From Candidatus Auribacterota bacterium (GTDB lineage: Bacteria; Auribacterota; Tritonobacteria; UBA1439): a DNA stretch of 64,000 nt. Below the pieces are notes generated by a model, which was not told where the DNA came from, ran no database searches, and saw only the letters and a program-made list of their open reading frames with translations. Made by a program: the position numbers and the translations under genes. Below, one piece after another: positions 11,729 to 48,126 of this stretch; the stretch's first letter is position 1, and each line of letters opens with the position of its first letter. Location of the stretch: positions 1,335 through 65,334 of the forward strand of contig JAPLCX010000085.1 of NCBI GenBank assembly GCA_026392035.1, written 5' to 3'.

Positions 11729-12129
11729 TGTTCGCCTTTTCTTTCGGACGCCAGGGCCTCGCTCACCACCCGCTTGACCGTTTCGATATTGAAAGGCTTG
11801 CTGATGTATTCATAGACATTCAAATCAGCCGCCTCTCTCGCCGTAAAGGCGCTGCCGTATGCGGTAAGGATTATCACTATAACATCTCTATCAACTTTCC
11901 TGATATTGCGAAGCGTCTCCATGCCGCCCATGCGCGGCATCTTCAGATCGAGAATGATCACATCCGGCTTGCTCTCGCCGTACCGCTCCAGCCCCTCAAG
12001 CCCGTCCTGAGCGGTAACGACGCCATATCCTTCATTGCCCAACAGTTCCTTAAATAACGAACATATGTCCGGTTCGTCATCTATTACAAGAACCTTATAC
12101 TCCTGTTTTTTATCTGCTTTCTTTTTCAT
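11725..12129 (-). CDS. Single-domain response regulator
   Basis: VLVIDD, D(LKMP), T(A), KPF. Confidence 0.92.
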   Translation of the reverse strand: MKKKADKKQEYKVLVIDDEPDICSLFKELLGNEGYGVVTAQDGLEGLERYGESKPDVIILDLKMPRMGGMETLRNIRKVDRDVIVIILTAYGSAFTAREAADLNVYEYISKPFNIETVKRVVSEALASERKGEQ

Positions 12130-14608
12130 AACCGCCTCTCTTTTCTATGGGTAACATAATGGTTACCGTTGTTCCCCTGCCTTCACCGTCGCTCTGAACG
12201 GTCATATCACCGTCGTGAGACTTGACTATGCCGACGCACACCGACAGCCCGAGCCCGGCGCCCTTCCCAACCTCCTTGGTGCTGAAGAACGGATCGAACA
12301 CCTTGTGCAAATCCTCTTTTTTTATCCCCACCCCACTGTCCTGGAATATAACGCGAAGCCAGTTGCCTTCCCTCGCCGTGGTAATTTTCAATACCCCCCT
12401 GCCATTCATGGCCTGGCAGGCATTGAGCGCCACATTTATAAAAACCTTCGATAACGCCTCCCGGTTAACAAAGACACAGGGGACATCCAATAAATAATCT
12501 TTTTTCAACGCTATGTGCTCAAGCGATGTCTGCCGCCCGGTTAACTCCATAGCCTCATCCACAACCTCATGCACATCCACTGGCGCCAACTGAAGGCTGT
12601 ATCCCCTCCCGCATGCAAGCAGGCTGCTCACAATCGCCCTGCAACGATCGGCGTTGCTCGCCACCTTCTCAAGCGCGTCCCTCAGTTCTTTGCGCTCGAA
12701 TTTGTCCTGCCCCAGCTTGCTCAACGCCAACTGGCTGAAACCGATCACACAGGCGAGCGGGTTATTGAGCTCGTGGCCGGCCCCCGCCACAAACGTGCCT
12801 ACGGCCGCCAGCCTCTCCGCTGTCATGAGCCGTCTCTCCATTCCCTTTTGCGTGGTAATGTCCCTTACCGTTGCCTGGACGATTACCTTTCCGTCTTGCT
12901 CCATCCTGGTCAGGAGTACGGTGGCGGGGAACTCCTCGCCGTCGAGGCGCTTATGCGTCCACTCGAAATAATTGGAGCCCTCGCGCATGGCTGTCTGGAT
13001 CATCTCCCTGGCCTTTTCGGCGGAAGCGCGCCCGTCCGGCTGCCGTTCGGGCGATAGATCCCACGGCCCCAGATTCGAGAATTCCTCCGCGTTCCTCGCC
13101 TTGAACATCTCCATCGTTGCACGGTTGCCGGAGGTGAACTTCCATGACGGAGGTTCAATGATCATGATAGCGTCACGGGAACTCTCGAAGAGGTTGCGGT
13201 ACTTGCTTTCACTTTCCCGCAGCGCCACTTGCATACGATACTGCTCTGTCACATCATGAAAGACCAGCACCACGCCGAGAATACGGCCGTCCTTATCGCG
13301 GATGGGTGCGGCGCTGTCGGCAATCAGATACTCCGTGCCGTCGCGGGCAATCAGCATGGTATCATTAGACAGTCCGATAATACCGGCTGTTTCCAGAACA
13401 CGCTTGACAGGATCCGGTGACGGCTGGCGAGTACGGGCATCTATAATGCGGAAAACATTGGACAGGGGACTCCCTTTAGATTCAAGCAGCGTCCAGCCAG
13501 TCATTTTCTCGGCCACGGGATTCATGCGCACGATCCTCCCATCGGTATCGACGGAGATGACCGCGTCGCCAATGGAATGCAAAGTAATGGCCATGTCTTC
13601 CTCACTCTTCCGCAACGCCTCCTCCGCATGGGACTGTTGGATGACAAGCGCAACGGCGCTGCTGAGTCCGTCCAGCATTTCGTCTTCAGCAGACCGCATG
13701 GGATGTTTGGAGAAAAGACTCAGAACACCTATCGCTTCACCGCCGGGAACCCTAAGCTGGTATCCTGCGAACGACACGAGTCCCAGATTGCGCGCCCATT
13801 CGTGGTTGTGGACATGGGGATCATGCTGCACGTCATTTGTCAGGAACTTGTGATCTTCGCCAGACGCGATGCGTCCGATTTTGTAACAGCCGAAGGGGAC
13901 GCGGTGGTGCGCTTTGCCGTCCAGGTGGGTGTAGCGGCCGGAGCTCGCCACCAAATGCAAACACCGGTCACGGTAGCGGCATACATGAGGCCCTTCTCTC
14001 ACTTCGGCATGGATGCAGTCCCGTTCACAAAGATCTCCGGGCCGAATCAGCCATATTCGACAAAAATCGGCGTCAAAGAGCCGGACAACGCCATCGGTTA
14101 TAGTTCTTAGTTTTTCATCAAGCAATGCCGGCGCAAGCAGCGAATGCTGGAGCACGCTGACACCATGCTGCCACAGCAACATTTTGCCATGTTCTTCCTC
14201 CAGCTTTTTCAGCTCGGTGATATCTTTGGCAATATGTACCGTGCCCGCTATCTCTCCCTTATCGTCAAATATAGGCGATACCGTAACCAAAAGAGGTATG
14301 CCTATATTTTTATCGTCCACCTCCTCGGTATGCGGCTTTTTGTCTCGCAGCGTCTTTTGATGCGGGCAATCGGGCCAAGGTTTATCGGACTTATGCAGGA
14401 TTTCATAACACTTCTTTCCTATCACCCCTTCGGCCTTTAAGTGTAATGCGCTTATAAGCGCCGTGTTGGCCTTAATTATCCTGCTTTCGTTATCCAAGAT
14501 GAAAACAAAATCCGAGATGGAGTTAAGTATGAGCTCCCACTCCTCGGCCTGCTGTTTGACTTTCTCCCCGGAATTTTTACGCTCGGTGACATCCATGAAA
14601 ACACCCAT
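12110..14608 (-). CDS. PAS-GAF-PAS-PAS sensor histidine kinase, probably 5'-truncated
   Basis: HELNNP H-box, N box, DSGVG, GLGL; begins abruptly at a PAC motif (GVFMDVTERK). Confidence 0.88.
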   Translation of the reverse strand: MGVFMDVTERKNSGEKVKQQAEEWELILNSISDFVFILDNESRIIKANTALISALHLKAEGVIGKKCYEILHKSDKPWPDCPHQKTLRDKKPHTEEVDDKNIGIPLLVTVSPIFDDKGEIAGTVHIAKDITELKKLEEEHGKMLLWQHGVSVLQHSLLAPALLDEKLRTITDGVVRLFDADFCRIWLIRPGDLCERDCIHAEVREGPHVCRYRDRCLHLVASSGRYTHLDGKAHHRVPFGCYKIGRIASGEDHKFLTNDVQHDPHVHNHEWARNLGLVSFAGYQLRVPGGEAIGVLSLFSKHPMRSAEDEMLDGLSSAVALVIQQSHAEEALRKSEEDMAITLHSIGDAVISVDTDGRIVRMNPVAEKMTGWTLLESKGSPLSNVFRIIDARTRQPSPDPVKRVLETAGIIGLSNDTMLIARDGTEYLIADSAAPIRDKDGRILGVVLVFHDVTEQYRMQVALRESESKYRNLFESSRDAIMIIEPPSWKFTSGNRATMEMFKARNAEEFSNLGPWDLSPERQPDGRASAEKAREMIQTAMREGSNYFEWTHKRLDGEEFPATVLLTRMEQDGKVIVQATVRDITTQKGMERRLMTAERLAAVGTFVAGAGHELNNPLACVIGFSQLALSKLGQDKFERKELRDALEKVASNADRCRAIVSSLLACGRGYSLQLAPVDVHEVVDEAMELTGRQTSLEHIALKKDYLLDVPCVFVNREALSKVFINVALNACQAMNGRGVLKITTAREGNWLRVIFQDSGVGIKKEDLHKVFDPFFSTKEVGKGAGLGLSVCVGIVKSHDGDMTVQSDGEGRGTTVTIMLPIEKRGGYEKESR

Positions 14609-14617: not shown

Positions 14618-14656
14618 GTCACACCCAATCCAAGAGGCACACCCTGAATACTAACT
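14618..14656. repeat. Decayed arm(s) of the RAYT-associated repeat
   Basis: GTCACACCC at 14618 and GCACACCCTGAATACTAACT at 14637-14656, matching the 46416/47508 inverted repeats. Confidence 0.75.
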
Positions 14657-14707
14657 CCGCCATCTCACCAATCTCGGAATCAGTATTCGGGCGTTGGCCC
14701 TTTTCAT

Positions 14708-21260: not shown

Positions 21261-23423
21261 TCAAGCCTTGTGGCCGGCCGGCGACCGCGAATTCCGCGCG
21301 CTCTCGACCAACTTCATCGCTTCTTCGAAATGCCTCTTCTCAATGGTGGGCGAGTCCTTCCCCTTCGGTTTTCGTTCGATAAACTCCCGTATGGCAATCA
21401 TCGCCGCCTTGCGGCATATAAGCTCGATATCAGACCCCGACTTGCCCCCGGTGTCCCTGGCCAGCTTCCTTATATCAATGTCCGGGGCGAGGGGTTTGTT
21501 TTTGACATGGATCTTGAATATCTTTCCCCGCGCCGCTTCGTCGGGGATCGGCAGCTCGAGGAGCAGATCAAATCTGCCGCTCCTGAGCAGCGCCGGGTCA
21601 ACAAGGTCCAGCCTGTTGGTCGCCCCCAGCACCAGCACGCCCTTGAGCTCCTCTATCCCGTCCATTTCCGTCAGAAACTGGCTTATCACCCGCTCCGTCA
21701 CATGGGCGTCAGTGGAACTCGACCCCCGGAGGGGCACAATGCTGTCGATCTCGTCAAAGAAAAGGATGGTGGGAGACGCCTGTTTCGCCTTCTTGAAGAT
21801 CTCCCGGATGCCCCGCTCGCTCTCCCCGACGTATTTTGATATGAGGGAGGGCCCTTTCACCGAGATGAAGTTCACGCCGCTCTCGTTTGCCACCGCCTTC
21901 GCGAGGAGGGTTTTCCCCGTCCCCGGGGCTCCGTACAGGAGGATTCCCTTCGGAGGCGAGGTGTTTGTCTTTTTAAATATCTCCGAGTACTTCAACGGCC
22001 ACTCAACCGCCTCTTTCAACTCCTCCTTGATAGTATCCAACCCGCCCACATCCTCCCATGTGACATCCGGCACCTCCACGAACACCTCTCGTATGGCCGA
22101 TGGTTCGACCTCCTTCATCGCTTCCAGGAAATCATCCATCGTCACCTCGAGCTTCATGAGCGTCTCGTAGGGGATATCGGCCATTTCAAAGTCTATCTTC
22201 GGGAGGATCTTCCGCAACGCCGACATCGCCGCTTCCCGCGCAAGCGCCTCGAGATCGGCGCCCACGAAACCGTGGGTGATCCCCGCGAGTTTCTCCACGC
22301 TCACGTCCTGCGCCAGGGGCATGCCCCTCGTGTGGATATGAAGTATCTCAAGCCTGCCGTTTTTGTCCGGGATGGGAATGGCTATCTCCCGGTCGAAGCG
22401 CCCCGGCCGCCGCAGCGCCGGATCCACTATATTGGGGACGTTGGTCGCGGCCATGACGACCACATGCCCCCGTGACTCCAATCCGTCCATGAGCGCCAGG
22501 AGCTGGGCCACCACCCGTCGCTCAACCTGTTTCTCAGCCCCCATATCTTCTCTCTTGGGAGCGATTGATTCGATCTCATCAATGAATATGATTGCGGGGG
22601 CATGCGCCTTGGCCTCCTCAAAGAGGGACCGGATGCGCCCTTCCGATTCCCCGTAAAATTTTCCCATGCACTCAGGCCCGCTCATGCTGGTAAAGTACGC
22701 GTCCGTCTCGTGCGCCACCGCGCGCGCGATCAATGTCTTGCCGCACCCCGGCGGCCCGTGGAGGAACACGCCCTTGGGGGCGTCGATGCCGAGCCGCTCG
22801 AATACCTCGGGATAGCGCAGCGGCAGCTCCACCATCTCCCTGATGCGCTGGACCTGCGTGCCGAGACCGCCGATATCCTCGTACGAGACCTTCGCGGGCC
22901 CCTTCTCCGGCGCCTCCTTGGTCTTGATCCGTATCATCGTGGCGGTGCTCAACACCACCACGCCATCGGGACTCGTGTCGAGCACCTTGAAATCGCACGA
23001 TCTCGTGCCGAAGAGCACCGCCCGTATCCGGTCGCCCACCATCACCGGAAGCCCGTCAATGAGCGACCCGATATACTTGCTGTCCTTCTCCCGGTCCGCC
23101 AGGCCCGACATGGTCAACGGGGAAAGCGTCACGCTCCGCGCGGGTTTCGATTCCACCTTATGTATCTTTACCCGGTCATCGAGCCCCACCTGCGCGTTCT
23201 CGCGTAAGATCCCGTCCATCTGAATGATCTTCATGCCGCGATCCGGGGCGTAACAGGGCATCGCCTTTGCCGGCGTCTTCCGTTTCCCTTCAACCTCGAT
23301 GATCTCCCCCACTTCAACGCCGAGCTTCTTCATGTCATCGGGATCTATTCTCGCGATAGACCTCCCGACATCCTTGGATAAAGCCTCTTTCACTTTTAGC
23401 ATCACATAACCTCCGTCATTCAC
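21261..23423 (-). CDS. CDC48/p97/VAT-family AAA+ ATPase
   Basis: Double-psi N domain; D1 [22 protein letters not shown]; D2 [18 protein letters not shown]. Confidence 0.93.
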
Positions 23424-23649: not shown

Positions 23650-24588
23650 CTACGCGCCAAACAGCAAATGCCTGAAATTATCCAACGACTCGATTCCCCT
23701 CACCTCCACGGGCTGCAACGGCACCAGGGTAATCTCAAATGCGCCGAACTTTTCCTTTATCATTTTGATGTATCTTTCCTGCCCCTTCCTCCGCTCCCTG
23801 CAGAAATCGCAGTCGCTCGACCTCACCACATTATTGACCACCATCTGTCTTACGTTGATTCCCGCCACGCGCAGGCTGTTCACCAGCCGTTCCGTTTCCG
23901 CGATCGCCATCTCCTCCGGAATGGTCACCACGATGAATTGGCAGCCTTGACCATCGCGGAGCAAACCCTCGATCCGCTTTACCACCTTCTTCATTTCGAC
24001 GAGGAACTCATCTGCCCTGTCAGGCTTCGCCCGCCCCGAAAAGGCTTCAACCACTCGATGATACTTCCACCGCATCTTCGCGACCACCTTGATCCAGTCA
24101 TCGAGAATGCCGGGCAGCGTCAACAACCTCAAGGCGTGTCCGGTGGGCGCGGTGTCAACGATATACTTGTCGAATTTCCCCTCCTCCACAAGGTCGAGGA
24201 TCGTTTTGAACCCCATCACCTCGTCTATACCCGGAATAGAGAGCGCGAACACGGAATCTATGTCGGCCTTGTCAAGATAGGTCGAGCTGTCGAGAATCCA
24301 TCGTATCTCATCCCCGTACTCCGCCTTGAACCGGCAGAGCGCCTTGTCCGCGCTTACTTCAATCGCGCTCAGGTTCTGAACACCGTCAATCCCGGTTACG
24401 GCATCCCCGATGCTCTGGCCGAAACAGTCGGAAAGGGAATGGGCGGGATCGGTGGAAATAAGCAATGTCTTGTATTGCCCGGCCAAATAAAAACCTGTGC
24501 TGGATGCACAGGTCGTTTTTCCCACCCCGCCCTTTCCGCCGAATAAAATCAGCTTTAGCGCGTCATTATTTAATCCTGTGAGTGGCAT
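23650..24588 (-). CDS. ArsA/GET3-family ATPase
   Basis: GKGGVGKTT, STDPAHSL, DTAPTGH. Confidence 0.93.
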   Translation of the reverse strand: MPLTGLNNDALKLILFGGKGGVGKTTCASSTGFYLAGQYKTLLISTDPAHSLSDCFGQSIGDAVTGIDGVQNLSAIEVSADKALCRFKAEYGDEIRWILDSSTYLDKADIDSVFALSIPGIDEVMGFKTILDLVEEGKFDKYIVDTAPTGHALRLLTLPGILDDWIKVVAKMRWKYHRVVEAFSGRAKPDRADEFLVEMKKVVKRIEGLLRDGQGCQFIVVTIPEEMAIAETERLVNSLRVAGINVRQMVVNNVVRSSDCDFCRERRKGQERYIKMIKEKFGAFEITLVPLQPVEVRGIESLDNFRHLLFGA

Positions 24589-25118
24589 TTCATCACTTTG
24601 ATTTCCAGCATGCCGTTATTGTATTTTGAGCGGAGCGTATCCGCTTTAACCTTTGCCGGGAGCAGGATCTCCTTGCGGTATTTCCTTTCGCCGGATTTGG
24701 CTGAAATATCCAGGATATCCCCTTTCAAATCAACCTTGATATCCTTTTCATTCACCCCCGGCATTTCGGCGTACACCCGGATCTCTTCCTTCTCGTCAAA
24801 CACGTCGGTGATCGGTTCCCGTTCCTCCTCAACCTTCGGCCCCTGGGGAGTTTTTTTGATCTTGTGACCGAACGGCTCCACCTTGAACGGCTTTCCTCCC
24901 GTGGCAGTCCGCACGGAAAAACCGAACACCCCCTTCATGCCTTCCTTGAGCTGGCTCAGATCTATCTCGCCTTCTTTTTTGATCTCACCGCCTGATTCTT
25001 TCAGGGATTCCGCCAGGTCCACCAATTTTTCAAGCCCTTTGAACAACCCCCCCAGGCTGAATTGCCCCATACCGATGTCAAAATCCGCCCCTTCCTTTTT
25101 CTTCTTTTCCTTTGCCAT
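24570..25118 (-). CDS. Hsp20/alpha-crystallin protein (GvpH-like), copy 1
   Basis: EPITDVFDE, AEMPGV, YNNGMLEI. Confidence 0.88.
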   Translation of the reverse strand: MAKEKKKKEGADFDIGMGQFSLGGLFKGLEKLVDLAESLKESGGEIKKEGEIDLSQLKEGMKGVFGFSVRTATGGKPFKVEPFGHKIKKTPQGPKVEEEREPITDVFDEKEEIRVYAEMPGVNEKDIKVDLKGDILDISAKSGERKYRKEILLPAKVKADTLRSKYNNGMLEIKVMKCHSQD

Positions 25119-25181
25119 GGTTCCCTCCTCTCTTTATGAAATCTTGCAAGGCCTCAGTTTTTGGATCAATCCCCATGTTCC

Positions 25182-25242
25182 GTAGGGGCGTGATTTATCG
25201 CGCCCGATATAATTTCTCGGGTTCGATGAATCGAACCCCTAC
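25182..25242. repeat. GTAG-type REP doublet
   Basis: GTAGGGGCGTGATTTATCGCGCCC and inverted GGGTTCGATGAATCGAACCCCTAC. Confidence 0.8.
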
Positions 25243-25321
25243 AGTACTGTATTAACAAGCCTTTTAGTGATGGATTTGAAATCTTGTCTTTTTTTCTTCT
25301 CTGTGATATTATTCTAACAGG

Positions 25322-25558
25322 GTGACAAATATGAAAACTCAAAAAATCGAAACAATTCGTAAAAAGTTCCATAGAGAATGGCTTTTGATCGCATTAGATA
25401 AAATGGATGAAAGAAGAACCATACCATTGACCGGCAGACTTCTGGCTCATAGTCCCCATCGGGATGAGGTTTATGCAAAGTCCTCTCGTTATAGAGGACA
25501 CGCATTGGTTGTTTATTCTGAGGATGGTTTCCCAAAAGGTTACGCTGCTGCTTTTTAA
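25322..25558 (+). CDS. Small hypothetical protein (DUF5678-like) upstream of the protease
   Basis: EWLLI...G.LLAHS..R pattern; stop lies 1 nt before the next ATG. Confidence 0.65.
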   Translation: MTNMKTQKIETIRKKFHREWLLIALDKMDERRTIPLTGRLLAHSPHRDEVYAKSSRYRGHALVVYSEDGFPKGYAAAF

Positions 25559-25559
25559 T

Positions 25560-25955
25560 ATGGCCAAACAATCCCTGCAAAAGATAATTCTTAAAGAAGG
25601 GATAATCTCTATTTATGTTGTGCTCAAAGGCCATATTACTTCGCGTACTATAAAAATGGCTCTGGATACAGGAGCCACTTATACTATGATACCCATAGAA
25701 ATCGCCAGGGATATAGGTTACGATCCCACTCTTACCAAAAGACGAATTGAAATTTCTACTGCTAATGGATTGATTTTCGTACCTCTGATTACAGTCCTGG
25801 AAATAAGTTTTATGGGGCTCACCCTGAAAAGTATCGATGTAATCTGTCATAACTTACCTTCTGAAAGTCCGGTGGAAGGCCTGCTCGGTCTCAACTTTTT
25901 AATCCACCTGCCTGCATTTATTGAGTTTTATCAGAAAATCCATTCTCATATCTAA
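25560..25955 (+). CDS. Retropepsin-like (clan AA) aspartyl protease
   Basis: ALDTGATYT, TANG, GLLGLNFL; ATG 25560. Confidence 0.88.
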   Translation: MAKQSLQKIILKEGIISIYVVLKGHITSRTIKMALDTGATYTMIPIEIARDIGYDPTLTKRRIEISTANGLIFVPLITVLEISFMGLTLKSIDVICHNLPSESPVEGLLGLNFLIHLPAFIEFYQKIHSHI

Positions 25956-25980
25956 AACCATCCGTCTGTTTCCAGCCTCA

Positions 25981-26058
25981 GGGTCACACCCTGAATACTA
26001 ACTATGAATGCTCGTCCAAAACCTGCTATGGTCTAAGTCAGTATTCAGGGTGTGACCC
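25981..26058. mobile_element. 78-bp REPIN/MITE-like element, copy 1
   Basis: 23-bp inverted arms (GGGTCACACCCTGAATACTAACT, 1 mismatch in the right arm) around a 32-bp spacer. Confidence 0.85.
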
Positions 26059-26071
26059 CGAATGTGATCAT

Positions 26072-26650
26072 TTAATCCTGTGAGTGGCATTTCATCACTT
26101 TGATTTCCAGCATGCCGTTATTGTATTTTGAGCGAAGCGTATCCGCTTTAACCTTTGCCGGAAGCAGGATCTCCTTGCGGTATTTCCTTTCGCCTGATTT
26201 GGCTGAAATATCCAGGATATCCCCTTTCAAATCAACCTTGATATCCTTTTCATTCACCCCCGGCATTTCGGCATACACCCGGATCTCTTCCTTCTCGTCA
26301 AACACGTCGGTGATCGGTTCGCGTTCCTCCTCGACCCTCGGCCCCTGGGGAGTTTTTTTGATCTTGTGGCCAAACGGCTCAACAGAGACCGGCCTGCCTC
26401 CGAGCGCGGTTTTTACAGAGAAACCAAAAACCCCCTTCATCCCTTCCTTCAGATGACTCAGGTCTATCTCGCCCTCTTTTTTGATTTCGCCGCCTGATTC
26501 TTTCAGGGCTTCCGCCAGGTCCACCAATTTCTCAAGCCCTTTGAACAACCCCCCCAGGCTGAATTGCCCCATACCGATGTCAAAATCCGCCCCTTCCTTT
26601 TTTCCGCCATGGGCGGCTCCGCCTCCGGCGGGCTTCTTCCCCTTTATCAT
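26072..26650 (-). CDS. Hsp20/alpha-crystallin protein (GvpH-like), copy 2
   Basis: Nearly identical to 24570-25118 apart from the N-terminus. Confidence 0.88.
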   Translation of the reverse strand: MIKGKKPAGGGAAHGGKKEGADFDIGMGQFSLGGLFKGLEKLVDLAEALKESGGEIKKEGEIDLSHLKEGMKGVFGFSVKTALGGRPVSVEPFGHKIKKTPQGPRVEEEREPITDVFDEKEEIRVYAEMPGVNEKDIKVDLKGDILDISAKSGERKYRKEILLPAKVKADTLRSKYNNGMLEIKVMKCHSQD

Positions 26651-26675
26651 GGCTCTCTCCTCCTCTCTGGCCTCA

Positions 26676-26753
26676 GGGTCACACCCTGAATACTAACTAC
26701 GAATGCTCATCCAAAACCTGTTATGATCTAAGTTAGTATTTAGGGTGTGACCC
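26676..26753. mobile_element. 78-bp REPIN/MITE-like element, copy 2
   Basis: Same arms; spacer differs from copy 1 at 4 of 32 positions. Confidence 0.85.
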
Positions 26754-26756
26754 CAC

Positions 26757-27065
26757 TTAATAATTTATAGTTTCAATGTTCTGCAAAATCCTCTTTTTAT
26801 TCTCCTTAATCTTCTCTTGTGTCCTCTCTTTTCTTCTCTTGAGTTTAAGAAGCCAGCTCTTTTCTGTTATATCTTTACCTTGTTTTGTCAGGCTGCATAT
26901 TCCTTTAAAGGCATCAAAATCAACAAAACCATTTCTCTCTAACCCCTTGCAGATCACATACGCATAGTGAGAACTGATTCTTAATCCCTGGGCTATTAAA
27001 TAGTAATGAAGCCTATCCCCATTTTTAGCTATGACATCCAGGGTTTCCTGCTCCATGCCGGTCAT
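26757..27065 (-). CDS. Hypothetical protein, winged-helix-like N-terminus and basic tail
   Basis: IAQGLRISSHYAYVICKGLERNGFV...LTKQG pattern. Confidence 0.55.
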   Translation of the reverse strand: MTGMEQETLDVIAKNGDRLHYYLIAQGLRISSHYAYVICKGLERNGFVDFDAFKGICSLTKQGKDITEKSWLLKLKRRKERTQEKIKENKKRILQNIETINY

Positions 27066-27107
27066 TTCACCCCCATGCCGATTTTAAAATGGTTATCAAT
27101 GGGGTAA

Positions 27108-27404
27108 TTATTTTATCTTCGCCTCCAAACGCTCAAGCCTCTTCTTCAAAACCGCATTCTCCTTCTCGAACTCCTTTTCCCTCGCCTTCGTGGAAAGGTA
27201 CGCGTCCTGCTGCCACCAGTTGATCCCCATCTCCATGGCCTTATCAACGGAGGCGATCAGGAGCCTTATTTTGATATTGAGAAGGTCAATATCGGCGATC
27301 TGTATCTTGATGTCTCCGGCAATCACTATTCCCTTGTCCAGAACCCGTTCCAGTATATCCGCGAGATTGGTAGCCTGGATTGAATGCGCCAATTGCTCAA
27401 CCAT
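27108..27404 (-). CDS. gvpJ: Gas vesicle protein GvpJ
   Basis: NLADILERVLDKGIVIAGDI...IRLLIASVDKAMEMGINWW. Confidence 0.88.
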   Translation of the reverse strand: MVEQLAHSIQATNLADILERVLDKGIVIAGDIKIQIADIDLLNIKIRLLIASVDKAMEMGINWWQQDAYLSTKAREKEFEKENAVLKKRLERLEAKIK

Positions 27405-27453
27405 TTTCTACCTCCTGCATGCTCACGCTTATGTAAAATTATGTGTATGGCGG

Positions 27454-27711: not shown

Positions 27712-27728
27712 ACCCTCACCCTGGTTAT

Positions 27729-28106
27729 TTATCCTGCAACTACGCCTATCCCCCTGCATTTTGAACAGGGAAGACCGCATCCTTTCTCCCGGCCTCTTCC
27801 TTTGCAGGAAAGGCATACCTCAACCTTCTTGGTATGCACGTTTACAACGCCTTTTCCACGGCAGACAATACAGGCAAGGTCGGGATTCAGATGCGATTTC
27901 CCCGTACCATTACAATAAGCGCATATCACCGCAGGCGGTTGAATATTTATAGTCCCGACGCCTGAACAAACAAAACAGCTTGTGCTTTTCTTGGAAGGCA
28001 TAAACCCTCTTCCGCCACAAAATCCACATCTATAGACGTGTTTACTTAGGACTTCTCCTCTCCTGCCTGCCTTTTGACTTTTGAAATCAAAGGTTTTCCA
28101 CATCAT
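27729..28106 (-). CDS. Stand-alone DnaJ-type zinc-finger protein
   Basis: Six CxxCxGxG repeats. Confidence 0.85.
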   Translation of the reverse strand: MMWKTFDFKSQKAGRRGEVLSKHVYRCGFCGGRGFMPSKKSTSCFVCSGVGTINIQPPAVICAYCNGTGKSHLNPDLACIVCRGKGVVNVHTKKVEVCLSCKGRGREKGCGLPCSKCRGIGVVAG

Positions 28107-28696: not shown

Positions 28697-29668
28697 CTAT
28701 ACTACAGAGGTTTCTTTCTCGGATTTCTGTCCAATCTTCTCTGCGCTCCTGGCCTTGCCAAGTTCCTTTTCCACAAGATCTCTGACTACTTCTTTCACCC
28801 TGGCTTGATTCGTCCTTGAGCCAACCCGGCTTGTCTCAGATGCCAGGATATCCTGACACATCTTCAGGAACCCATCTGAGTTGGAAGGAGTCATATTCTG
28901 GACTTTAAGCGTTTTTGCAATCATAATACAGCCGCGGATGGTTGGAGCGAATTCGCACTTTCCCGATTCCCTCAAGCCCCTGACAATATTAACTACCTTC
29001 TCGGCATGGTGTTTTGAGAGCTTGGATTTCGCCTGGGTTATTGCCAGCTCTGTCTCATAGTCAAAGTGCTCCAGGTCCATGGTAATCATTCTATCCCTTA
29101 GCGCATCCTGACTCCTGTGTACCCCGGCATATTCCTCAGGGTTGGAGGTAAAAACAGCGGTAAAATCAGGATCAACCCTTAAATATGGTTCTTCTCCACC
29201 TCTTCCCACCGGCAAATCCATCATCTTCTCCTGAAGGATGGAGAGGAGAATATTATTAGCTTCCGGGCGCGACCGGGTGAATTCGTCATAGATCAGCGTA
29301 AATCCGTACTTACAGGCAACGGTCAGCCGGTTATCCACCCATCTCTTTATCATATCCTCTTCTACCTTCAAAACCCTGGATACAAAGCGGTCAACCACCT
29401 TTCTGATTCGATAGCCATACTCGCCACCGACTAAATCAGAGGTGGTAAACTCTTCATCTCCATGAATCATCACCACCGGCCGTCCTATTTTACTCGCGAT
29501 ATGCATAGCCAACGTTGTCTTGCCGGTGCCGGATACCCCCCTGAAGTGAACCGGAAAGCCGGCCTTAATATAGGAAAGGCTCCTATCGGTAACATCCTTG
29601 ATATACTTGGTTTCCACAAAGTCCGGCAGAGGACTTGGCTCCAATACTGTGGTCATCTCATCAACCAT
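28697..29668 (-). CDS. gvpN: Gas vesicle AAA+ ATPase GvpN
   Basis: HFRGVSGTGKTTLA, YDEFTRS.PEANN.LL, TSNPEEYAGVH..QDAL.DR. Confidence 0.96.
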   Translation of the reverse strand: MVDEMTTVLEPSPLPDFVETKYIKDVTDRSLSYIKAGFPVHFRGVSGTGKTTLAMHIASKIGRPVVMIHGDEEFTTSDLVGGEYGYRIRKVVDRFVSRVLKVEEDMIKRWVDNRLTVACKYGFTLIYDEFTRSRPEANNILLSILQEKMMDLPVGRGGEEPYLRVDPDFTAVFTSNPEEYAGVHRSQDALRDRMITMDLEHFDYETELAITQAKSKLSKHHAEKVVNIVRGLRESGKCEFAPTIRGCIMIAKTLKVQNMTPSNSDGFLKMCQDILASETSRVGSRTNQARVKEVVRDLVEKELGKARSAEKIGQKSEKETSVV

Positions 29669-29674
29669 TTTATA

Positions 29675-43618: not shown

Positions 43619-45769
43619 CTATATCCGCCTCAGCCGCAACCTGTTGCGGGGGGGGGGGGGGGGGGGGGTAACCGGCAGCCTTACCGTGACCGTGGTACCC
43701 TTCCCCACCTCGCTGTGCACATCTATAGAGCCATTGTGTTGGCTGATAATCTGGTGGGCAAGGCTTAAGCCCAGCCCGACGCCCTCCCTCTTGGTGGAGA
43801 AGAACGGATTGAATATCTTCGGCAGTTCAGCCTCCGGAATACCCTTGCCGGTATCGGCGATGGTGATGACAATCTCTTTTCTGTCCGGGTCCGACTCAGC
43901 CGTTACGATAAGCGTTCCCCCCTGCGGCATCGCGTCAATCGCGTTGATCATGAAATTCATGAGCGCCTGTCCTATCCGCTCAGGGTCCATGAGCGCCGAT
44001 GGCAGACGTCTTGCCAACCTTCTCCGGACACGCACGCGATTCACCGAGCACCGCGGTTTAATGAGCTCACAGGTATTTTTGATTACCTCTCTCACAAAGC
44101 ACATTCTAAACGATGTCGAGTGCGGCTTTGCGAACTCCAGCAGATCCTTGATGATGCTATTTGCGCTCTCGGAATTTCTCACAATGACATCCATGTGTTT
44201 CCGCACTGGTTTATCCAGCTCATACTTGCCGAGGCAATACTGGGCCGTCGCGGATATATTTGCGAGCGGATTTCGTATCTCATGGGCGACGCCCGAAGCC
44301 AGCTTCCCAACCGCCGCCAGCTTTTCAGACTGCAGCGCTTTCTTCTCCACCTTTTTCTTTTCAGTAATATCCTTTGAGATATGGACAAAACCTGTGATCT
44401 CATTTTTTTCGTCGCGGAAAGGAGAGGCGACGACTTCCAGGTAGCGCCCCAGCCTCGGCTCAAAGTATTCCGTCCTCACCGCTTCCCCTCGCTCAACCGC
44501 TTCTTCCCCCGGGCACTTCAAATGAGGTCCTTTCGTCTCATGAAATAACTCATACCAGGTTCGCCCGATAAGTTCAGCTGGTTTCATGCCGAAAGCGGAT
44601 GCAAAGGCCATGTTCACCCTTGTTATTCTATAGCTCAAGTCGTGTATGGAGATCATGTCGGAGATAGAGTCAAAGGTGTTTCTCCATTCCGCGGCGGCAT
44701 GCTCAATCTTTTCACGCATATGTTTTGCTTCGGTGAAATCGCGGGCGATACCGGCGGTGCCCACTATCCTCCCTTCTCCGTTAACGACGGGCGTCTTGAT
44801 CGTCTCAATCCACGTGGTAGTTCCATCTGCATTCGCCAACGGCTCCTCGACACGCTGACGGACACCAGATCTCATAACCGCTTTGTCATCACGCCTATAT
44901 CTATCCGCAAGCTCCCGCGGCCAGATATCCAGGTCAGTTTTGCCTGTCAGGTCCTCAGGCCGCACACCGCATGCCTTCCCGAACGCTTCATTTACCACGA
45001 TAAACCTGCTATCCCTATCTTTTAACCACGCAATGTCAGGGATGTTATTAAGTATCGCTTGCTGTTGCTTCCCGGCCTGCAGCAGATGTTGTTCCATCGA
45101 CTCGCGCTCGCTGTTATCCACAAGCGCCCACCTGCCCTCTCTTCTTATAAGAATGAACCGATGGCTGCTTACCATATCTATAATTTCCGCTACGTCGTTT
45201 CTCTCAAGCGCGTAGCTGCACAGAGCAAGCATTTTGTGCTCGCCGATGGCGTTACTCATCGCTCGCTCACAATTGATAAAATCCTTCCAACCTTTTTCCC
45301 CCACCCAAGCCATATCACCGGTGGCTCTCATCCCATCATAACCACTTGCCAGGGCTTTGTCATGCTTTCTAGTCCAGGCAGCAAGCACCTTTCTCGGATC
45401 GAATCTTCCTTCACTGAGATACCACTCACTATCTGGGATAATCTCTATCTGCCCTTTTTTAAGATAACCATCGAAATCGGCAATCCTCTTTGCCAACCCC
45501 GCTTTCGCCTCCTCGATCCTCAGAGGAGCAGATACAATCCATATGCAAAACTCGTTGCTTTCGAGCCCCGCTTGGAAATAGGGTAAGAGCATCTCAAGCA
45601 AATCATCTTTAGTCTGATGGAACAGGCAGAAATGCGAACCCCATGGGATATCACCGAGAACATTTATCCCTGATTTTCTAATATGCGCTGTCATGCTCTT
45701 ACCACTCCCTTCCCTTTGCATCGCAGGCATGGAAGCACGCGACCCCTCGCTCTCCCTCTTCCTCCACAA
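43619..45769 (-). CDS. MEDS-PAS-PAS sensor histidine kinase
   Basis: MEDS (SG...LGDIPWGSHFCLF), two PAS/PAC domains, AHEIRNP; poly-Pro tail encoded by a G21 tract. Confidence 0.9.
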   Translation of the reverse strand: MWRKRESEGSRASMPAMQREGSGKSMTAHIRKSGINVLGDIPWGSHFCLFHQTKDDLLEMLLPYFQAGLESNEFCIWIVSAPLRIEEAKAGLAKRIADFDGYLKKGQIEIIPDSEWYLSEGRFDPRKVLAAWTRKHDKALASGYDGMRATGDMAWVGEKGWKDFINCERAMSNAIGEHKMLALCSYALERNDVAEIIDMVSSHRFILIRREGRWALVDNSERESMEQHLLQAGKQQQAILNNIPDIAWLKDRDSRFIVVNEAFGKACGVRPEDLTGKTDLDIWPRELADRYRRDDKAVMRSGVRQRVEEPLANADGTTTWIETIKTPVVNGEGRIVGTAGIARDFTEAKHMREKIEHAAAEWRNTFDSISDMISIHDLSYRITRVNMAFASAFGMKPAELIGRTWYELFHETKGPHLKCPGEEAVERGEAVRTEYFEPRLGRYLEVVASPFRDEKNEITGFVHISKDITEKKKVEKKALQSEKLAAVGKLASGVAHEIRNPLANISATAQYCLGKYELDKPVRKHMDVIVRNSESANSIIKDLLEFAKPHSTSFRMCFVREVIKNTCELIKPRCSVNRVRVRRRLARRLPSALMDPERIGQALMNFMINAIDAMPQGGTLIVTAESDPDRKEIVITIADTGKGIPEAELPKIFNPFFSTKREGVGLGLSLAHQIISQHNGSIDVHSEVGKGTTVTVRLPVTPPPPPPRNRLRLRRI

Positions 45770-46050
45770 TCACTGCAGTGCTTCACTTTTGAAGTCTGTA
45801 TACTCACCACCCCTTTGCCGAGGCATACGAGACAAGTGATATTCGAGCCAGGCGGTGATTGCCCGCTCCCTTTGCAATATACGCACTTGATCGCCGGCGC
45901 TTCTGTCATGACAACTCCTCTCCCCCTGCAAATATAGCACCGGACATTTTTTCTCCCCCTGATGACACCGATACCCCCACAAAAACCACAATTAAACATT
46001 GATCTCTTATAAATCCGCACCTTCTTCATTTGGGGTCGGGTAAGCTCCAT
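45691..46050 (-). CDS. Stand-alone DnaJ-type zinc-finger protein (third paralogue)
   Basis: Six CxxCxGxG repeats. Confidence 0.82.
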   Translation of the reverse strand: MELTRPQMKKVRIYKRSMFNCGFCGGIGVIRGRKNVRCYICRGRGVVMTEAPAIKCVYCKGSGQSPPGSNITCLVCLGKGVVSIQTSKVKHCSDCGGRGRARGRVLPCLRCKGKGVVRA

Positions 46051-46412
46051 TTTAGGGTCGCATCTTCCAGACCTTCTTTGAAAAGCAATCCGTATATGAG
46101 ATAGGTGATCTTCAGCCCTTCTAAATAATTATGTACCGCATGCTCCATCCCGATAAAAAGGAGGCCAATTTCACCATCTGACAGGGTATGCTTTATCCGC
46201 TCGCTGATGAACACATCCCGCTTTATAAGTAACTCCCTCTCTGTATCCTTATAGCGCTGCACAGCCGCCGATCTCTCTTTAACGCCGGAAGCCTGGTAAA
46301 GGCGCTTCAGATTGTTGTATTCCTCAAGCAATAATGATGGATCCTCCGTACCTTCAATCATTGCTCCCATTTCGAGAAGATCCATGACGAGCCTATAGTT
46401 CGTGAATCCCAC
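46026..46412 (-). pseudogene. C-terminal half of a receiver-associated paralogue, cut at the RAYT repeat
   Basis: Aligns to 47488-48126 from about GSPNH onward; N-terminal ~85 aa absent. Confidence 0.75.
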
Positions 46413-46415
46413 CTG

Positions 46416-47508
46416 GGGTCACACCCTGAATACTAACTTTGATACTTTTGGAGACTCCATATTATTCTCGTAATACGATTGCTCAGCACTTCGTCTATTT
46501 TGATCCTATTTTTAATCCGGTTATGTATTTTTGTAATTGCTTCCCCACTAATCCCACCCAATTCAATGCCCATCTCGCGAAGGTTTTTCTTTCTTAGGTT
46601 CAACCTGTGGCTAATTTCTAATAGTACCTGCCTCGCCTCTCGGGACTTAGACCTACTCTTAATTATGTCATCGGCTCTAACTCCATACTCCTTTGCCACC
46701 TCCGCGGCGATTTCCTCGATAGGAACTGCCCTATTAATCGACTTCAAATGAGTATAATCCCTAGGATTTGGTGCTCTATGTGCCACGAAGTTCTCATTTG
46801 CCCAGGATATAAAATTATCAGAACCTAATATCGCATTGGCCTTTGTTTCCTTTAAGGGACTCAACAATTCTTTTTCGAGCCCTTCCCAGACAAACTGCCA
46901 GTATCTCTCCCTCCCTTTCTTATCATCTCCACCCATATAGCCCAATACTTCACCATATTGCATAAAATCATCTCTGTATTTTAAGCGAATATAACCGCAC
47001 AAGCTGCTCCATTGATAATTTTTCAACACTTTCGCCTTTTCTTCTGGCGGAAAATATTTATATTTCGCGAGTCTCACAGGATTTAGATGTATATACCGGC
47101 TCAGTTGCAATAAATATTCATCTGCATCCACCAGTATGGCCTTGAAACGTCCCTGGTAAAGGTGCCCATGCCGCTGATGGCGCAAGTTGAAATAGGTAGT
47201 ATATGCCGTGCTGAATCGCTGCATAAATCGGCTCAGATTCGCTTCCAATGTCTTTAATAAAAAATGGAAGTGATTGGTCATCAAAACATAGCAATGCAGT
47301 TGCACCTTAAATAGCTTCAAGCTTTCCGTCAAGACCTGGAGAAAGTGCTTGCGATCGTTGTCGTCACGAAAAATGACAACTCCCTCATTACCTCGGGAGG
47401 TAACGTGATACCAAGCATTGCTATATTCTATTCTCAATGACCTGGCCATAAATAAATTCTACCAAAACCCATGTCGAAAGGCAAAAGTTAGTATTCAGGG
47501 TGTGACCC
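46416..47508. mobile_element. RAYT element bounded by 25-bp perfect inverted repeats
   Basis: GGGTCACACCCTGAATACTAACTTT at 46416-46440 and its reverse complement at 47484-47508. Confidence 0.85.
46433..47449 (-). CDS. REP-associated tyrosine (Y1/HUH) transposase with C-terminal DnaA-C-like HTH
   Basis: YHVTSRGN, YVLMTNHFH (HUH), QGRFKAI, YIHLNPV; stop codon falls within the left IR. Confidence 0.92.
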   Translation of the reverse strand: MARSLRIEYSNAWYHVTSRGNEGVVIFRDDNDRKHFLQVLTESLKLFKVQLHCYVLMTNHFHFLLKTLEANLSRFMQRFSTAYTTYFNLRHQRHGHLYQGRFKAILVDADEYLLQLSRYIHLNPVRLAKYKYFPPEEKAKVLKNYQWSSLCGYIRLKYRDDFMQYGEVLGYMGGDDKKGRERYWQFVWEGLEKELLSPLKETKANAILGSDNFISWANENFVAHRAPNPRDYTHLKSINRAVPIEEIAAEVAKEYGVRADDIIKSRSKSREARQVLLEISHRLNLRKKNLREMGIELGGISGEAITKIHNRIKNRIKIDEVLSNRITRIIWSLQKYQS

Positions 47509-48126
47509 TGAAGTTCTTCCTGAGAGACTTTCCTTGAAAGGGAGTCTATATATGAGGTACGTGATCTTCGTTCCGCCCAGGTACTTGTTCACAGCATGCT
47601 GCATGCCAATAAACAGAAGCCCGACCTCATTCTGAGCCAGGGTTCGGTCTATCCTCCGGGCCATATACCTGTCACGCTTGACCAGCAGCTCCCCGGCAAC
47701 TTGCTTAAAATCCTGGATGGCCTTCAGCTTCTCTTTTACGGTTGAGGCCTGGTACAGCTTCTTCAGGCCGTTATATTCCTGCATCAGGAGGCCCGGGTCT
47801 TCCGTCCCCTCCAGTTTCGCCCCCCTCTCAATCAGATCCAGAACAATCTTATGGTTCGGACTCCCCTTCCCTGCTATATCCCGCACTATCTCCAGCTCCT
47901 TGCCGCAGATCGGGAGGCCATCCTGATATATCCTCAACCTCTCATACGGTAAGTCCATGCTGAATATCTTCTCGCGCAGGCCATCCCACATCTCCCTGAT
48001 TACCCTCTTATGAAGCTCCCATTTCTTCTTCCCGTATTTAGCTATATACTCTCTTCCCGCAGATTCCGACAGGCTTCCCATGTCAACTTCCGTATGCACA
48101 ACGGGGGCGTAGATCAGCTCTCTCAT
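47488..48126 (-). CDS. Uncharacterised receiver-associated protein
   Basis: YAPVVH, IYQDGLP, EGTED, RDRYMARRI, LLFIGMQH; C-terminus (GSHPEY*) is supplied by the right IR. Confidence 0.78.
   Translation of the reverse strand: MRELIYAPVVHTEVDMGSLSESAGREYIAKYGKKKWELHKRVIREMWDGLREKIFSMDLPYERLRIYQDGLPICGKELEIVRDIAGKGSPNHKIVLDLIERGAKLEGTEDPGLLMQEYNGLKKLYQASTVKEKLKAIQDFKQVAGELLVKRDRYMARRIDRTLAQNEVGLLFIGMQHAVNKYLGGTKITYLIYRLPFKESLSGRTSGSHPEY

What the first reader, a model, noticed from the sequence alone, without database searches (positions are those of the whole stretch)
25981..26058. RAYT with matching non-autonomous 78-bp elements
Seen: the 23-bp arms are the same sequence as the IRs enclosing the RAYT gene (46416-47508); each arm begins with a GGGT-CAC-ACCC mini-hairpin; two full elements and one decayed arm are present. 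Known: RAYTs mobilise REPINs, mainly described for GTAG/CGTC REPs. Here the arms look like long TIRs closely enclosing the gene, suggesting that the RAYT unit itself moves (inference).
Basis: partly seen in the sequence, partly recalled or inferred. Interest (0 to 1): 0.7.

Follow-up and report, generated by a model that had tools for sequence, protein, structure and literature searches.

The report
TIR-flanked tyrosine transposase with mini-elements
The 78-bp hairpin element is a miniature, gene-less copy of the two ends of a nearby tyrosine-transposase gene unit; this kind of unit (a "TIRtron") was described in 2013 but has never been tested biochemically, so this is a clear new example, not a new kind of system.

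Summary
A 22-23 nt arm (GGGTCACACCCTGAATACTAAC) occurs seven times in the window, against none expected by chance. It forms two 78-bp inverted dimers (25981-26058 and 26676-26753, 72/78 identical), one decayed 67-bp dimer (14634-14700), and perfect 25-bp terminal inverted repeats around a 338-aa gene (46433..47449, minus strand).

The protein has a Y1 HUH transposase domain whose best structural match is E. coli RAYT (4ER8). It also has a C-terminal domain like DnaA domain IV. The arms carry the published GGGGWSAS motif. This places it in the TIRYT/TIRtron class (Di Nocera 2013; subclass 2.1 of Quentin 2018), not among classical GTAG-REP RAYTs.

In 57 of 75 testable related loci the gene has equivalent GGGTCA-initial repeats. 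In metagenome contigs that include the Ca. Euphemobacter frigidus (Auribacterota) locus, near-identical arm cores bound 133-182 bp mini-elements at 21 or more different sites. Whole units also occur as diverged, frameshifted or internally deleted copies.

A related genome has the same gene neighbourhood without the unit. In the window's own population, however, the unit and element B are fixed, and no movement was seen. Mobilisation by the encoded enzyme is inferred.

Verdict: new member of a known kind; moderate interest.

The parts
25981..26058 (.). Element A: a 78-bp TIR dimer (non-autonomous, MITE-like). Arms are 25981-26003 and 26036-26058, with a 32-nt spacer. The copy unit shared with B extends to 25975-26059 (GCCTCA on the left, C on the right).
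   Evidence: (D16). As ssDNA it folds into one long hairpin of -22 to -26 kcal/mol, z -6.6 to -8.0. No Rfam family reaches threshold.
26676..26753 (.). Element B: the second 78-bp TIR dimer, 72/78 identical to A. It lies 3 nt downstream of the stop of gene 26757..27065(-) and 25 nt upstream of hsp20 copy 2.
   Evidence: ssDNA fold -23.4 kcal/mol, z -8.3. Present in all four independent contigs that cover the site.
14634..14700 (.). Decayed TIR dimer of 67 bp. The left arm matches 21/23 and the right arm 16/23. The 21-nt spacer is unrelated to that of A and B. It lies just upstream of histidine-kinase gene 12110..14608(-).
   Evidence: Weak hairpin of -10.9 kcal/mol, z -2.7.
46416..47508 (-). 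TIRtron: the complete 1093-bp unit, made of two perfect 25-bp terminal inverted repeats and the transposase gene.
   Evidence: Absent from the syntenic locus of a related genome (L159/L160).
46416..46440 (+). Downstream TIR (3' of the gene). With the preceding G it reads GGGGTCAC, which fits GGGGWSAS. It overlaps the last two codons and the stop codon of the transposase gene.
   Evidence: The same 3' overlap is seen in relatives and is described as '3'ov' in PMC3733652.
47484..47508 (-). Upstream TIR (5' of the gene). It is preceded by TCA, which gives an 8-bp stem/3-nt loop palindrome TTCAGGGT-CAC-ACCCTGAA (47494-47512). The flanking ACTTCA plus this arm supply the last 8 codons and the stop (TSGSHPEY*) of the neighbouring 212-aa gene.
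46433..47449 (-). TIRYT gene, 338 aa. It has an N-terminal Y1 HUH domain (H60-F-H62, Y119 in YIHLNP), a conserved middle region (W147-S-S149) and a C-terminal DnaA-domain-IV-like helix-turn-helix (about residues 240-333).
   Evidence: Pfam and NCBIfam; alignments; PDB profile search 8btg 9.5e-9 and 1j1v 3.8e-7; AlphaFold model with pLDDT 86.9; Foldseek 4er8_A TMt 0.70 and 1j1v TMt 0.88.
47456..47484 (-). Promoter-like site TTGCCT-17-TAGAAT, with TG before the -10. It starts at the inner edge of the upstream TIR, and the -10 ends 6 nt before the ATG, so a leaderless mRNA is inferred.
   Evidence: The same layout occurs in close relatives and in 24/76 family loci against 3.6 in shuffles, with the 6-nt distance in 15 of those 24.
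47488..48126 (-). Flanking 212-aa gene of unknown function. The unit replaced its native C-terminus.
   Evidence: Homologues are about 205-210 aa, and similarity stops about 13 codons before the end.
46026..46412 (-). N-terminally truncated paralogue (128 aa, 58% identical to residues 88-205 of the 212-aa protein). It abuts the downstream TIR and is absent from the syntenic locus in L159.
26064..26677 (-). Duplicated hsp20 segment (copy 2, about 93% identical to 24562-25157). It includes the first 9 codons of the ArsA-like gene. Its limits coincide with the facing ends of elements A (5 nt away) and B (0 nt away).

Best explanation
The window holds a TIRtron, that is, a RAYT-like Y1 (HUH) tyrosine transposase gene of the TIRYT class (subclass 2.1, with a C-terminal DnaA-domain-IV-like DNA-binding domain) enclosed by perfect 25-bp terminal inverted repeats that start with the class motif GGGGWSAS. 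It also holds three gene-less derivatives made of two such repeats facing each other: two intact 78-bp dimers and one decayed dimer.

Proposed mechanism (inferred). The enzyme recognises the arms and cuts and rejoins one DNA strand at or a few bases outside the GGGTCAC ends, using His60/His62 and Tyr119 in the way IS608 TnpA and E. coli TnpA-REP do. Recognition would be through the hairpin formed in single-stranded DNA, or through the helix-turn-helix domain on duplex DNA. The enzyme would thereby move the mini-elements in trans and, at least in some lineages, the whole unit. No target duplication is made.

The upstream repeat also carries the gene's promoter, so binding there would autoregulate expression.

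In this particular population the unit itself appears settled at one locus.
For: Shown:
- Identical arms on the gene unit and on the dimers, none expected by chance.
- Intact catalytic motifs and domain architecture.
- The arm fits GGGGWSAS, and the gene-to-repeat distances match the published class.
- 57 of 75 testable related loci, from many phyla, have GGGTCA-initial inverted repeats at the same positions.
- Closer relatives (59-61% identical), one of them Auribacterota, the phylum suggested for the host by MetK, keep the core TCAGGGTCACACCC.
- In metagenome contigs that include the Ca. Euphemobacter frigidus locus, 45 convergent dimers of 133-182 bp with conserved interiors lie in 21 or more distinct flanks. 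Unit-sized copies are intact, frameshifted (93% identical) or internally deleted (937 bp), in different flanks.
- A Planctomycetia contig has three units at 97-99% identity whose similarity ends at the repeats.
- The syntenic locus in L159/L160 lacks the unit, and the arm supplies a new stop codon to the neighbouring gene.
- No target-site duplication is seen, as expected for Y1 enzymes.

Inferred: cleavage position, strand, the trans-mobilisation itself, and autoregulation.
Against: - No movement is seen in this organism. The unit is at one locus in 14 contigs, and B is present in all four contigs that cover it.
- Only three dimers are visible. The host genome is not in the searchable DNA collections, so no genome-wide count was possible.
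- A and B lie 695 bp apart on either side of one duplicated gene, so a local rearrangement could have produced the second copy instead of transposition.
- The 32-nt spacer is not clearly derived from the interior of the unit.
- The hairpin is strong only at TCA-preceded ends and is not conserved family-wide.
- No TIRYT has been assayed biochemically in the literature I could search.
Confidence: 0.75

Rival explanations
1. This is a domesticated RAYT/REPIN-type system in the strict sense. The gene is an immobile, vertically inherited single-copy host gene that only disperses the 78-bp doublets (REPINs). The repeats around it are simply the nearest REPIN halves, not the ends of a mobile unit.
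For: There is one gene copy in 64 kb and it sits at the same locus in all 14 contigs. The relatives P0014 and P0023 also sit at one locus across many samples and strain variants. The best structural match is E. coli RAYT bound to a REP hairpin. RAYTs are typically single-copy (PMC5581495).
Against: - The arms are exactly one per side, perfect over 25/25, at class-conserved distances, and they overlap the stop codon.
- There is no GTAG/CGTC tag.
- NCBIfam REP_Tyr_transpos scores 56 bits against a cut-off of 80.
- Whole units are multi-copy with boundaries at the repeats in L040, and diverged or decayed copies occur in different flanks in the metagenome contigs found with the arm pattern.
- A syntenic site lacks the unit.
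Confidence: 0.15
2. The arms are protein-binding or transcription-control sites, not transposon ends. The helix-turn-helix domain would bind them as operators, and the 78-bp hairpins placed just after stop codons would act as terminators or mRNA stabilisers. On this view their copies arose by local duplication.
For: The upstream arm abuts a promoter-like site. A and B sit 13 and 3 nt after stop codons and fold strongly. A and B flank one duplicated gene.
Against: - No T-tract follows the hairpins.
- A and B share only 6+1 nt of flank, so they were not copied as part of a larger segment.
- The catalytic HUH and Tyr residues are invariant across 106 homologues.
- Related mini-elements occupy 21 or more unrelated flanks.
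- A secondary regulatory effect is still possible alongside mobility.
Confidence: 0.07
3. The repeats are chance matches or assembly artefacts.
For: None found beyond the fact that short-read contigs break near A and B.
Against: Zero matches are expected by chance against 7 found. The same sequences appear in independent assemblies from several samples at 99.7-100% identity.
Confidence: 0.01

Closest known systems
TIRtron / TIRYT (TIR-associated tyrosine transposase), Di Nocera, De Gregorio & Rocco 2013, BMC Genomics 14:522 (PMC3733652)
   Same: A RAYT-like Y1 gene flanked by terminal inverted repeats that share GGGGWSAS. The repeats lie at a fixed distance upstream and overlap the 3' end of the gene. 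In some genomes the repeats also occur elsewhere as singles, dimers or clusters.
   Different: The host lineage, probably Ca. Auribacterota, is not among the published examples as far as I could see. Here the dimers are compact (78 bp). In relatives they have conserved interiors and conserved bases outside the arms, which the paper did not analyse.
TnpA-REP-like subclass 2.1 (2.1.2) of Quentin et al. 2018, BMC Genomics 19:475 (PMC6006769)
   Same: A long (about 335 aa) Y1 protein with a C-terminal Bac_DnaA_C-like helix-turn-helix. The paper equates this subclass with the TIRYTs.
   Different: That study found no REP-like repeats near subclass 2.1 genes. Here the flanking repeats clearly recur as dispersed dimers. 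Placement in their tree was not tested.
RAYT/REPIN systems (E. coli TnpA-REP, PDB 4ER8; Pseudomonas fluorescens REPINs; Nunvar 2010, Bertels & Rainey 2011)
   Same: A Y1 HUH fold (best structural match), a gene bracketed by inverted copies of its cognate repeat, repeat doublets that form long hairpins, an extragenic location, and a single gene copy fixed in the population.
   Different: There is no GTAG/CGTC-tagged palindrome. The protein is twice as long, with an added DNA-binding domain, and scores below the NCBIfam RAYT cut-off. Whole units are multi-copy in some relatives.
IS200/IS605 family (IS608, ISDra2 TnpA)
   Same: The same catalytic fold and motifs, no target duplication, and conserved asymmetric bases outside the recognised structure in relatives (AAAAAATCA ... 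TGATGGTAY). These recall cleavage sites set apart from the hairpins.
   Different: IS200/IS605 elements have no terminal inverted repeats and different left and right hairpins. Their TnpA is about 130-150 aa with no extra domain.
MITEs (miniature inverted-repeat transposable elements)
   Same: Short, non-coding, with ends identical to those of a coding element. Relatives show an internally deleted intermediate (937 bp).
   Different: There is no target-site duplication. The partner enzyme is a single-strand Y1 transposase, not a DDE enzyme.

Membership tests
TIRYT / TIRtron | Encoded protein is RAYT-like, with the HUH motif and a catalytic tyrosine | tested here: met
   H60-F-H62 and Y119 are invariant in 106 homologues. 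Pfam Y1_Tnp 6.8e-11. Foldseek 4er8_A E 7.6e-5, TMt 0.70.
TIRYT / TIRtron | Gene flanked by terminal inverted repeats instead of REP palindromes | tested here: met
   25/25 complementary arms at 46416-46440 and 47484-47508.
TIRYT / TIRtron | Repeat carries the motif GGGGWSAS at its outer end | tested here: met
   The downstream arm reads GGGGTCAC (8/8) and the upstream arm AGGGTCAC (7/8). The motif is taken from PMC3733652.
TIRYT / TIRtron | Repeats at conserved distances from the gene, with overlap of its 3' end | tested here: met
   The upstream arm starts 59 nt before the ATG; the commonest distance in relatives is 52-53 nt. The downstream arm overlaps the stop codon, as in most of the 57 related loci.
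TIRYT / TIRtron | Repeats may recur in the genome as singles, dimers or clusters | tested here: met
   Two intact dimers and one decayed dimer in the window. No genome-wide count was possible.
TnpA-REP-like subclass 2.1.2 (Quentin 2018) | C-terminal Bac_DnaA_C / HTH domain | tested here: met
   Pfam gives a weak hit. The profile search against PDB DnaA gives 9.5e-9. The model matches 1j1v with TMt 0.88, rmsd 1.7.
TnpA-REP-like subclass 2.1.2 (Quentin 2018) | Placement inside the subclass in their phylogeny, and their serine motif | not tested
   Their tree and profiles are not available here. Invariant S117 and S149 exist but I could not map them to their motif.
Classical RAYT / REPIN | Protein reaches the curated RAYT model | tested here: not met
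   NCBIfam NF047646 REP_Tyr_transpos scores 56.4 bits against a cut-off of 80.
Classical RAYT / REPIN | Flanking repeats are 20-40 nt imperfect palindromes with a GTAG or CGTC tag | tested here: not met
   No such tag is present. A stable palindrome exists only at TCA-preceded ends.
Classical RAYT / REPIN | Doublets are abundant (tens to hundreds) in extragenic space | not testable with these tools
   The host genome is absent from the DNA collections. There are three in 64 kb.
Classical RAYT / REPIN | Single-copy gene, vertically inherited | tested here: inconclusive
   One copy, at the same locus in 14 contigs. But a syntenic relative lacks it, and other relatives are multi-copy.
IS200/IS605 | No terminal inverted repeats, distinct subterminal hairpins, TnpA of about 130-150 aa | tested here: not met
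   Perfect 25-bp repeats and a 338-aa three-part protein.
MITE | Short non-coding element whose ends match an autonomous element | tested here: met
MITE | Target-site duplication | tested here: not met
   There are no direct repeats flanking A, B or the unit. This is expected for a Y1 enzyme.

The most novel reading that the evidence does not exclude
The arms may do more than move themselves. They may delimit host DNA that the enzyme copies.

In the window, the duplicated hsp20 segment (26064-26677) is exactly the DNA lying between the facing outer ends of elements A and B. Its arm-free twin (24562-25157) begins and ends at TCA and carries the same GCCTCA that precedes A and B. Likewise, a truncated paralogue fragment abuts the unit's downstream repeat.

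This would fit 'inside-out' or one-ended action of a Y1 transposase that duplicates host genes.
Probability: 0.12. Interest if true: 0.65.

Novelty: new member of a known kind. Interest (0 to 1): 0.35.

Why it matters
TIRYTs are very common: more than 6500 homologues were found in the protein collection, and more than 590 loci in one-genome-per-species data. In the literature I could search they are covered by only two comparative papers, and no enzyme has been assayed.

This locus, together with relatives that include Auribacterota, gives a compact and well-defined substrate set: an intact enzyme, perfect 25-bp ends, 78-bp and 133-bp mini-elements, candidate cleavage flanks, and an empty site. 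That would make the open question directly testable, namely whether these enzymes act on hairpins like RAYTs and IS608, or on duplex repeats through the DnaA-like domain.

It does not change the current picture of bacterial mobile DNA.

Tried and rejected
- **Arm scans of public DNA.** Scanning one-genome-per-species contigs and JGI metagenomes for the exact arm found nothing. The host genome could therefore not be counted. A relaxed pattern found only relatives.
- **Sequence-only PDB search.** The N-terminal domain gave only spurious hits. The fold search was needed.
- **Origin of the spacer.** I tried to derive the 32-nt spacer of A and B from the interior of the unit. Both orientations align about equally through a shared TTTTGG/CCAAAA motif, so the result is ambiguous.
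- **Rfam.** Only sub-threshold generic hairpin (miRNA precursor) hits.
- **Insertion polymorphism.** Look-ups through neighbouring proteins showed B always present. hsp20 copy 1 is not on record. P0003's contig has no DNA held.
- **L122/L137/L154.** The 1094-bp arm-bounded stretch has no TIRYT hit and no convincing gene. I treat it as the space between two separate elements.
- **Arm-adjacent duplications in L142 and L137.** These turned out to include part or all of an element, so they are ordinary segmental duplications and do not support the capture idea.
- **The 71-bp indel next to the arm in L103.** It contains no arm sequence.

Full report
**1. Observation**

The reported 78-bp stretch (25981-26058) is two 23-nt arms in inverted orientation around a 32-nt spacer. 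The arm GGGTCACACCCTGAATACTAAC, allowing up to 3 mismatches, occurs seven times in the window against none in 100 shuffles:
- two copies in element A;
- two in a second element B (26676-26753);
- two enclosing ORF 46433..47449 on the minus strand;
- one at 14634.

A and B are 72/78 identical including the spacer. They share only 6 nt (GCCTCA) beyond the left arm and 1 nt beyond the right arm. The arms around the ORF are 25/25 complementary, and the unit is 1093 bp.

The site at 14634 is a decayed whole dimer of 67 bp. Its second arm matches 16/23 in the right orientation, 22 nt away.

As single strands, A and B fold into long hairpins of -22 to -26 kcal/mol, z -6.6 to -8.3. No Rfam family reaches threshold.

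**2. The gene**

The 338-aa product matches Pfam Y1_Tnp (6.8e-11) and, weakly, Bac_DnaA_C. It scores 56 bits on NCBIfam's RAYT model, below the 80-bit cut-off.

More than 6500 homologues exist, and most are about 335 aa and alignable over their full length. Invariant residues include H60, H62 (the HUH motif), Y119 (in YIHLNP), S117, S149 and R273.

A profile of the family matches DnaA domain IV in the PDB (8btg 9.5e-9, 1j1v 3.8e-7).

An AlphaFold model (mean pLDDT 86.9) matches E. coli TnpA-REP bound to a REP hairpin best (4er8_A, TMt 0.70). ISDra2 and IS608 TnpA come next. The C-terminus matches DnaA domain IV (1j1v, TMt 0.88, rmsd 1.7).

In the alignment, DnaA's GGRDHTTV stretch aligns with GGISGEAI. 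From my knowledge of the DnaA-DNA structure (Fujikawa 2003), D433, H434 and T435 make base contacts. Their replacement here suggests a DNA target other than the DnaA box. This is an inference.

**3. What is known**

Di Nocera et al. 2013 (PMC3733652) named RAYT-like genes flanked by terminal inverted repeats 'TIRtrons', and their proteins 'TIRYTs'. Many of these repeats share GGGGWSAS, sit at similar distances from the gene, and in some genomes recur as singles, dimers or clusters.

Quentin et al. 2018 (PMC6006769) placed 20 of the 26 TIRYTs in subclass 2.1, which has a C-terminal Bac_DnaA_C/HTH domain. They found no REP-like repeats near those genes.

The window's downstream arm, with its preceding base, reads GGGGTCAC, an exact fit. 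The upstream arm reads AGGGTCAC. In the searchable library only these two papers use the terms, and I found no biochemical study.

**4. Family-wide anatomy**

In the 80 loci kept, 75 were testable. In 57 of those the gene is bracketed by inverted repeats that begin GGGTCA, usually preceded by G.

The upstream repeat most often starts 52-53 nt before the start codon; here it is 59 nt. The downstream repeat overlaps or abuts the stop codon, as it does here.

Many upstream repeats end in TTGACA. In 24 of 76 loci there is a sigma-70-like promoter matching at least 9/12, against 3.6 in shuffles. Its -10 ends exactly 6 nt before the start codon in 15 of those 24. The window has TTGCCT-17-TAGAAT-6-ATG, and two closer relatives have TTTGAC-17-TATAGT-6-ATG. 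I infer that the upstream repeat carries the -35 of a promoter for a leaderless mRNA.

The GGGT-CAC-ACCC hairpin is kept only in the closest relatives, as TCAGGGTCACACCC in P0014 and P0023. It is not family-wide. In the window it is stable only where TCA precedes the arm, which gives a 7-8 bp stem.

**5. Evidence on mobility**

*In this organism.* All 14 contigs that encode the identical protein show the same neighbours. A 98.9%-identical strain variant also has the unit at this locus. Element B is present in all four contigs covering its site. No polymorphism was seen. The exact arm is absent from the public genome and metagenome DNA collections, so no genome-wide count was possible.

*In relatives.*
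- A Planctomycetia contig (L040) has three units at 97-99% identity. Their similarity begins 2 nt before one repeat and ends 7 nt after the other, and the flanks differ.
- MetK suggests the host is Ca. Auribacterota (86-88% identity to 'Candidatus Aureabacteria' proteins). Ca. Euphemobacter frigidus, which carries relative P0023, belongs to that phylum.
- A relaxed arm pattern found 48 metagenome contigs. Two of them are the P0023 locus itself.
- Those contigs hold 45 convergent dimers of 133, 152-158 or 182 bp in 21 or more distinct flank contexts, with conserved interiors.
- They also hold unit-sized copies: 1083 and 1139 bp (intact), 1115 and 1129 bp (93% identical, frameshifted) and 937 bp (internally deleted). 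These lie in different flanks.
- The 133-bp family also keeps about 9 conserved bases outside each arm (AAAAAATCA ... TGATGGTAY). The mobile unit is therefore slightly longer than the inverted repeat and is asymmetric, as in IS200/IS605 elements.
- No target duplication is evident anywhere.

**6. An empty site**

The 212-aa gene next to the unit has homologues of about 205-210 aa. In a related genome (L159/L160, protein 71% identical) the order is response regulator, 209-aa gene, MEDS-PAS kinase, kinase, response regulator. The first two genes are separated from the kinase by only 70 bp of non-aligning DNA.

In the window, about 1.86 kb (47535..45680) takes the place of those 70 bp. It contains the unit, a 128-aa N-terminally truncated paralogue of the 212-aa gene (58% identical) and a DnaJ-type zinc-finger gene.

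Similarity to the relative stops about 13 codons before the end of the 212-aa gene. Its last eight codons and stop (TSGSHPEY*) are encoded by ACTTCA plus the arm.

This fits arrival of the unit at the 3' end of that gene. The paralogue fragment on the other side shows that the history was more than a simple insertion.

**7. Elements A and B and the hsp20 duplication**

A and B bracket a second copy of an Hsp20-type gene in a gas-vesicle cluster. The duplicated DNA (24562-25157 versus 26064-26677, about 93% identical) starts 5 nt from A's right arm and ends exactly at B's left arm.

The arm-free copy has GGCCTCAG followed by unrelated sequence at the position where copy 2 has GGCCTCA followed by element B. 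A is also preceded by GCCTCA, and the unit's upstream repeat by ACTTCA.

This suggests a preferred TCA-ending target or cleavage context. It also leaves open that the arms played a part in the duplication (see the novel case). I could not resolve this.

One contig (L156) joins B and the copy-2 N-terminus to a body 100% identical to copy 1 over 324 nt. This is either a deletion allele lacking A or an assembly chimera.

**8. Conclusion**

The finding is a genuine and well-preserved TIRtron with matching TIR-dimer mini-elements. It is a new member of a known but little-studied class, probably in Ca. Auribacterota.

That the enzyme mobilises the dimers, and in some lineages the whole unit, is the best-supported explanation (0.75). 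It rests on anatomy and comparative evidence, not on observed movement in this genome.

The strict 'domesticated RAYT' reading (0.15) and a purely regulatory reading (0.07) remain possible, and both are compatible with parts of the data.

Noticed in passing
window 24562-25157 and 26064-26677: The Hsp20-type gene is duplicated (about 93% identity), together with the first 9 codons of the ArsA-like gene. The limits of copy 2 coincide with the facing ends of elements A and B. Copy 1 has the same GCCTCA motif at its boundary but no element.
   Followed up: partly
L156 (sample ERR11260133) versus window 26279-27363 and 24777-25100: This contig joins element B and the N-terminus of hsp20 copy 2 to a body 100% identical to copy 1 over 324 nt. 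It is either a recombinant or deletion allele lacking element A, or an assembly chimera between the paralogues.
   Followed up: no
window 45680-47535 versus L159 1818-1887: Relative to a syntenic locus in a related genome, the window has about 1.86 kb extra. This comprises the TIRtron, a truncated paralogue of the 212-aa gene and a DnaJ-type CXXCXGXG zinc-finger gene (45691..46050). A second such zinc-finger gene lies in the gas-vesicle cluster (27729..28106).
   Followed up: partly
window about 23650-29700: A gas-vesicle gene cluster: a GvpA-like gene (27108..27404, Pfam Gas_vesicle in L155), a GvpN-like AAA_5 ATPase (28697..29668), Hsp20/GvpH-like genes, an ArsA-like ATPase (23650..24588) and a CDC48-type AAA ATPase (21261..23423).
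   Followed up: no
window 10100-10250, 16150-16360, 17650-17820, 18060-18110, 19345-19420, 23440-23600, 30410-30800, 35475-35525, 40500-40615, 41570-41815, 50894-50923: At least three other intergenic repeat families occur. They are arrays of TTTGTCATTTG / CAAATCCCAAA-type units, CCCCCCTTT(N4-5)AAAGGGGGG palindromes, and GCCTGCCTG(C/T)CGGCAGGCAGG palindromes, often side by side. Short-read contigs L001 and L002 end at such repeats (about 50899 and 41708).
   Followed up: no
window 3643-3713 and 38260-38330: A 71-nt inverted repeat, 97% complementary, with arms 34.5 kb apart. Its nature is unknown. There are no tRNA genes in the window.
   Followed up: no
window 35213-35441 and 35524-35752: A 229-nt direct repeat at about 91% identity, 311 nt apart. 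Not examined.
   Followed up: no
L087/L088 upstream of the gene (L088 about 6790-6840): In Ca. Euphemobacter frigidus the upstream repeat is preceded by stuttered partial copies of its own outer end (GTAAGATCAGT GTAAGATCAGGGTCAT GTAAGATCAGGGTCACACCC). These may be footprints of repeated end processing.
   Followed up: no
L084 9754-9899 and 10915-11171; also L019, L025, L036, L049, L079: In several distant relatives extra arms are stacked in direct orientation next to the gene, up to 4 upstream and 5 downstream at spacings of about 30-100 bp. They do not form dispersed inverted dimers.
   Followed up: partly
L103 6582-6756 versus L102 7072-7175: A 71-bp insertion/deletion polymorphism lies immediately beside the downstream repeat of relative P0014. 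It is flanked by a TGTATTTTC duplication and contains no arm sequence.
   Followed up: no
window 25464-25955 (+): A clan AA aspartic-protease-like ORF (TIGR02281, 1.2e-11, below cut-off) lies between the two hsp20 copies on the opposite strand and ends 20 nt before element A's extended left end.
   Followed up: no
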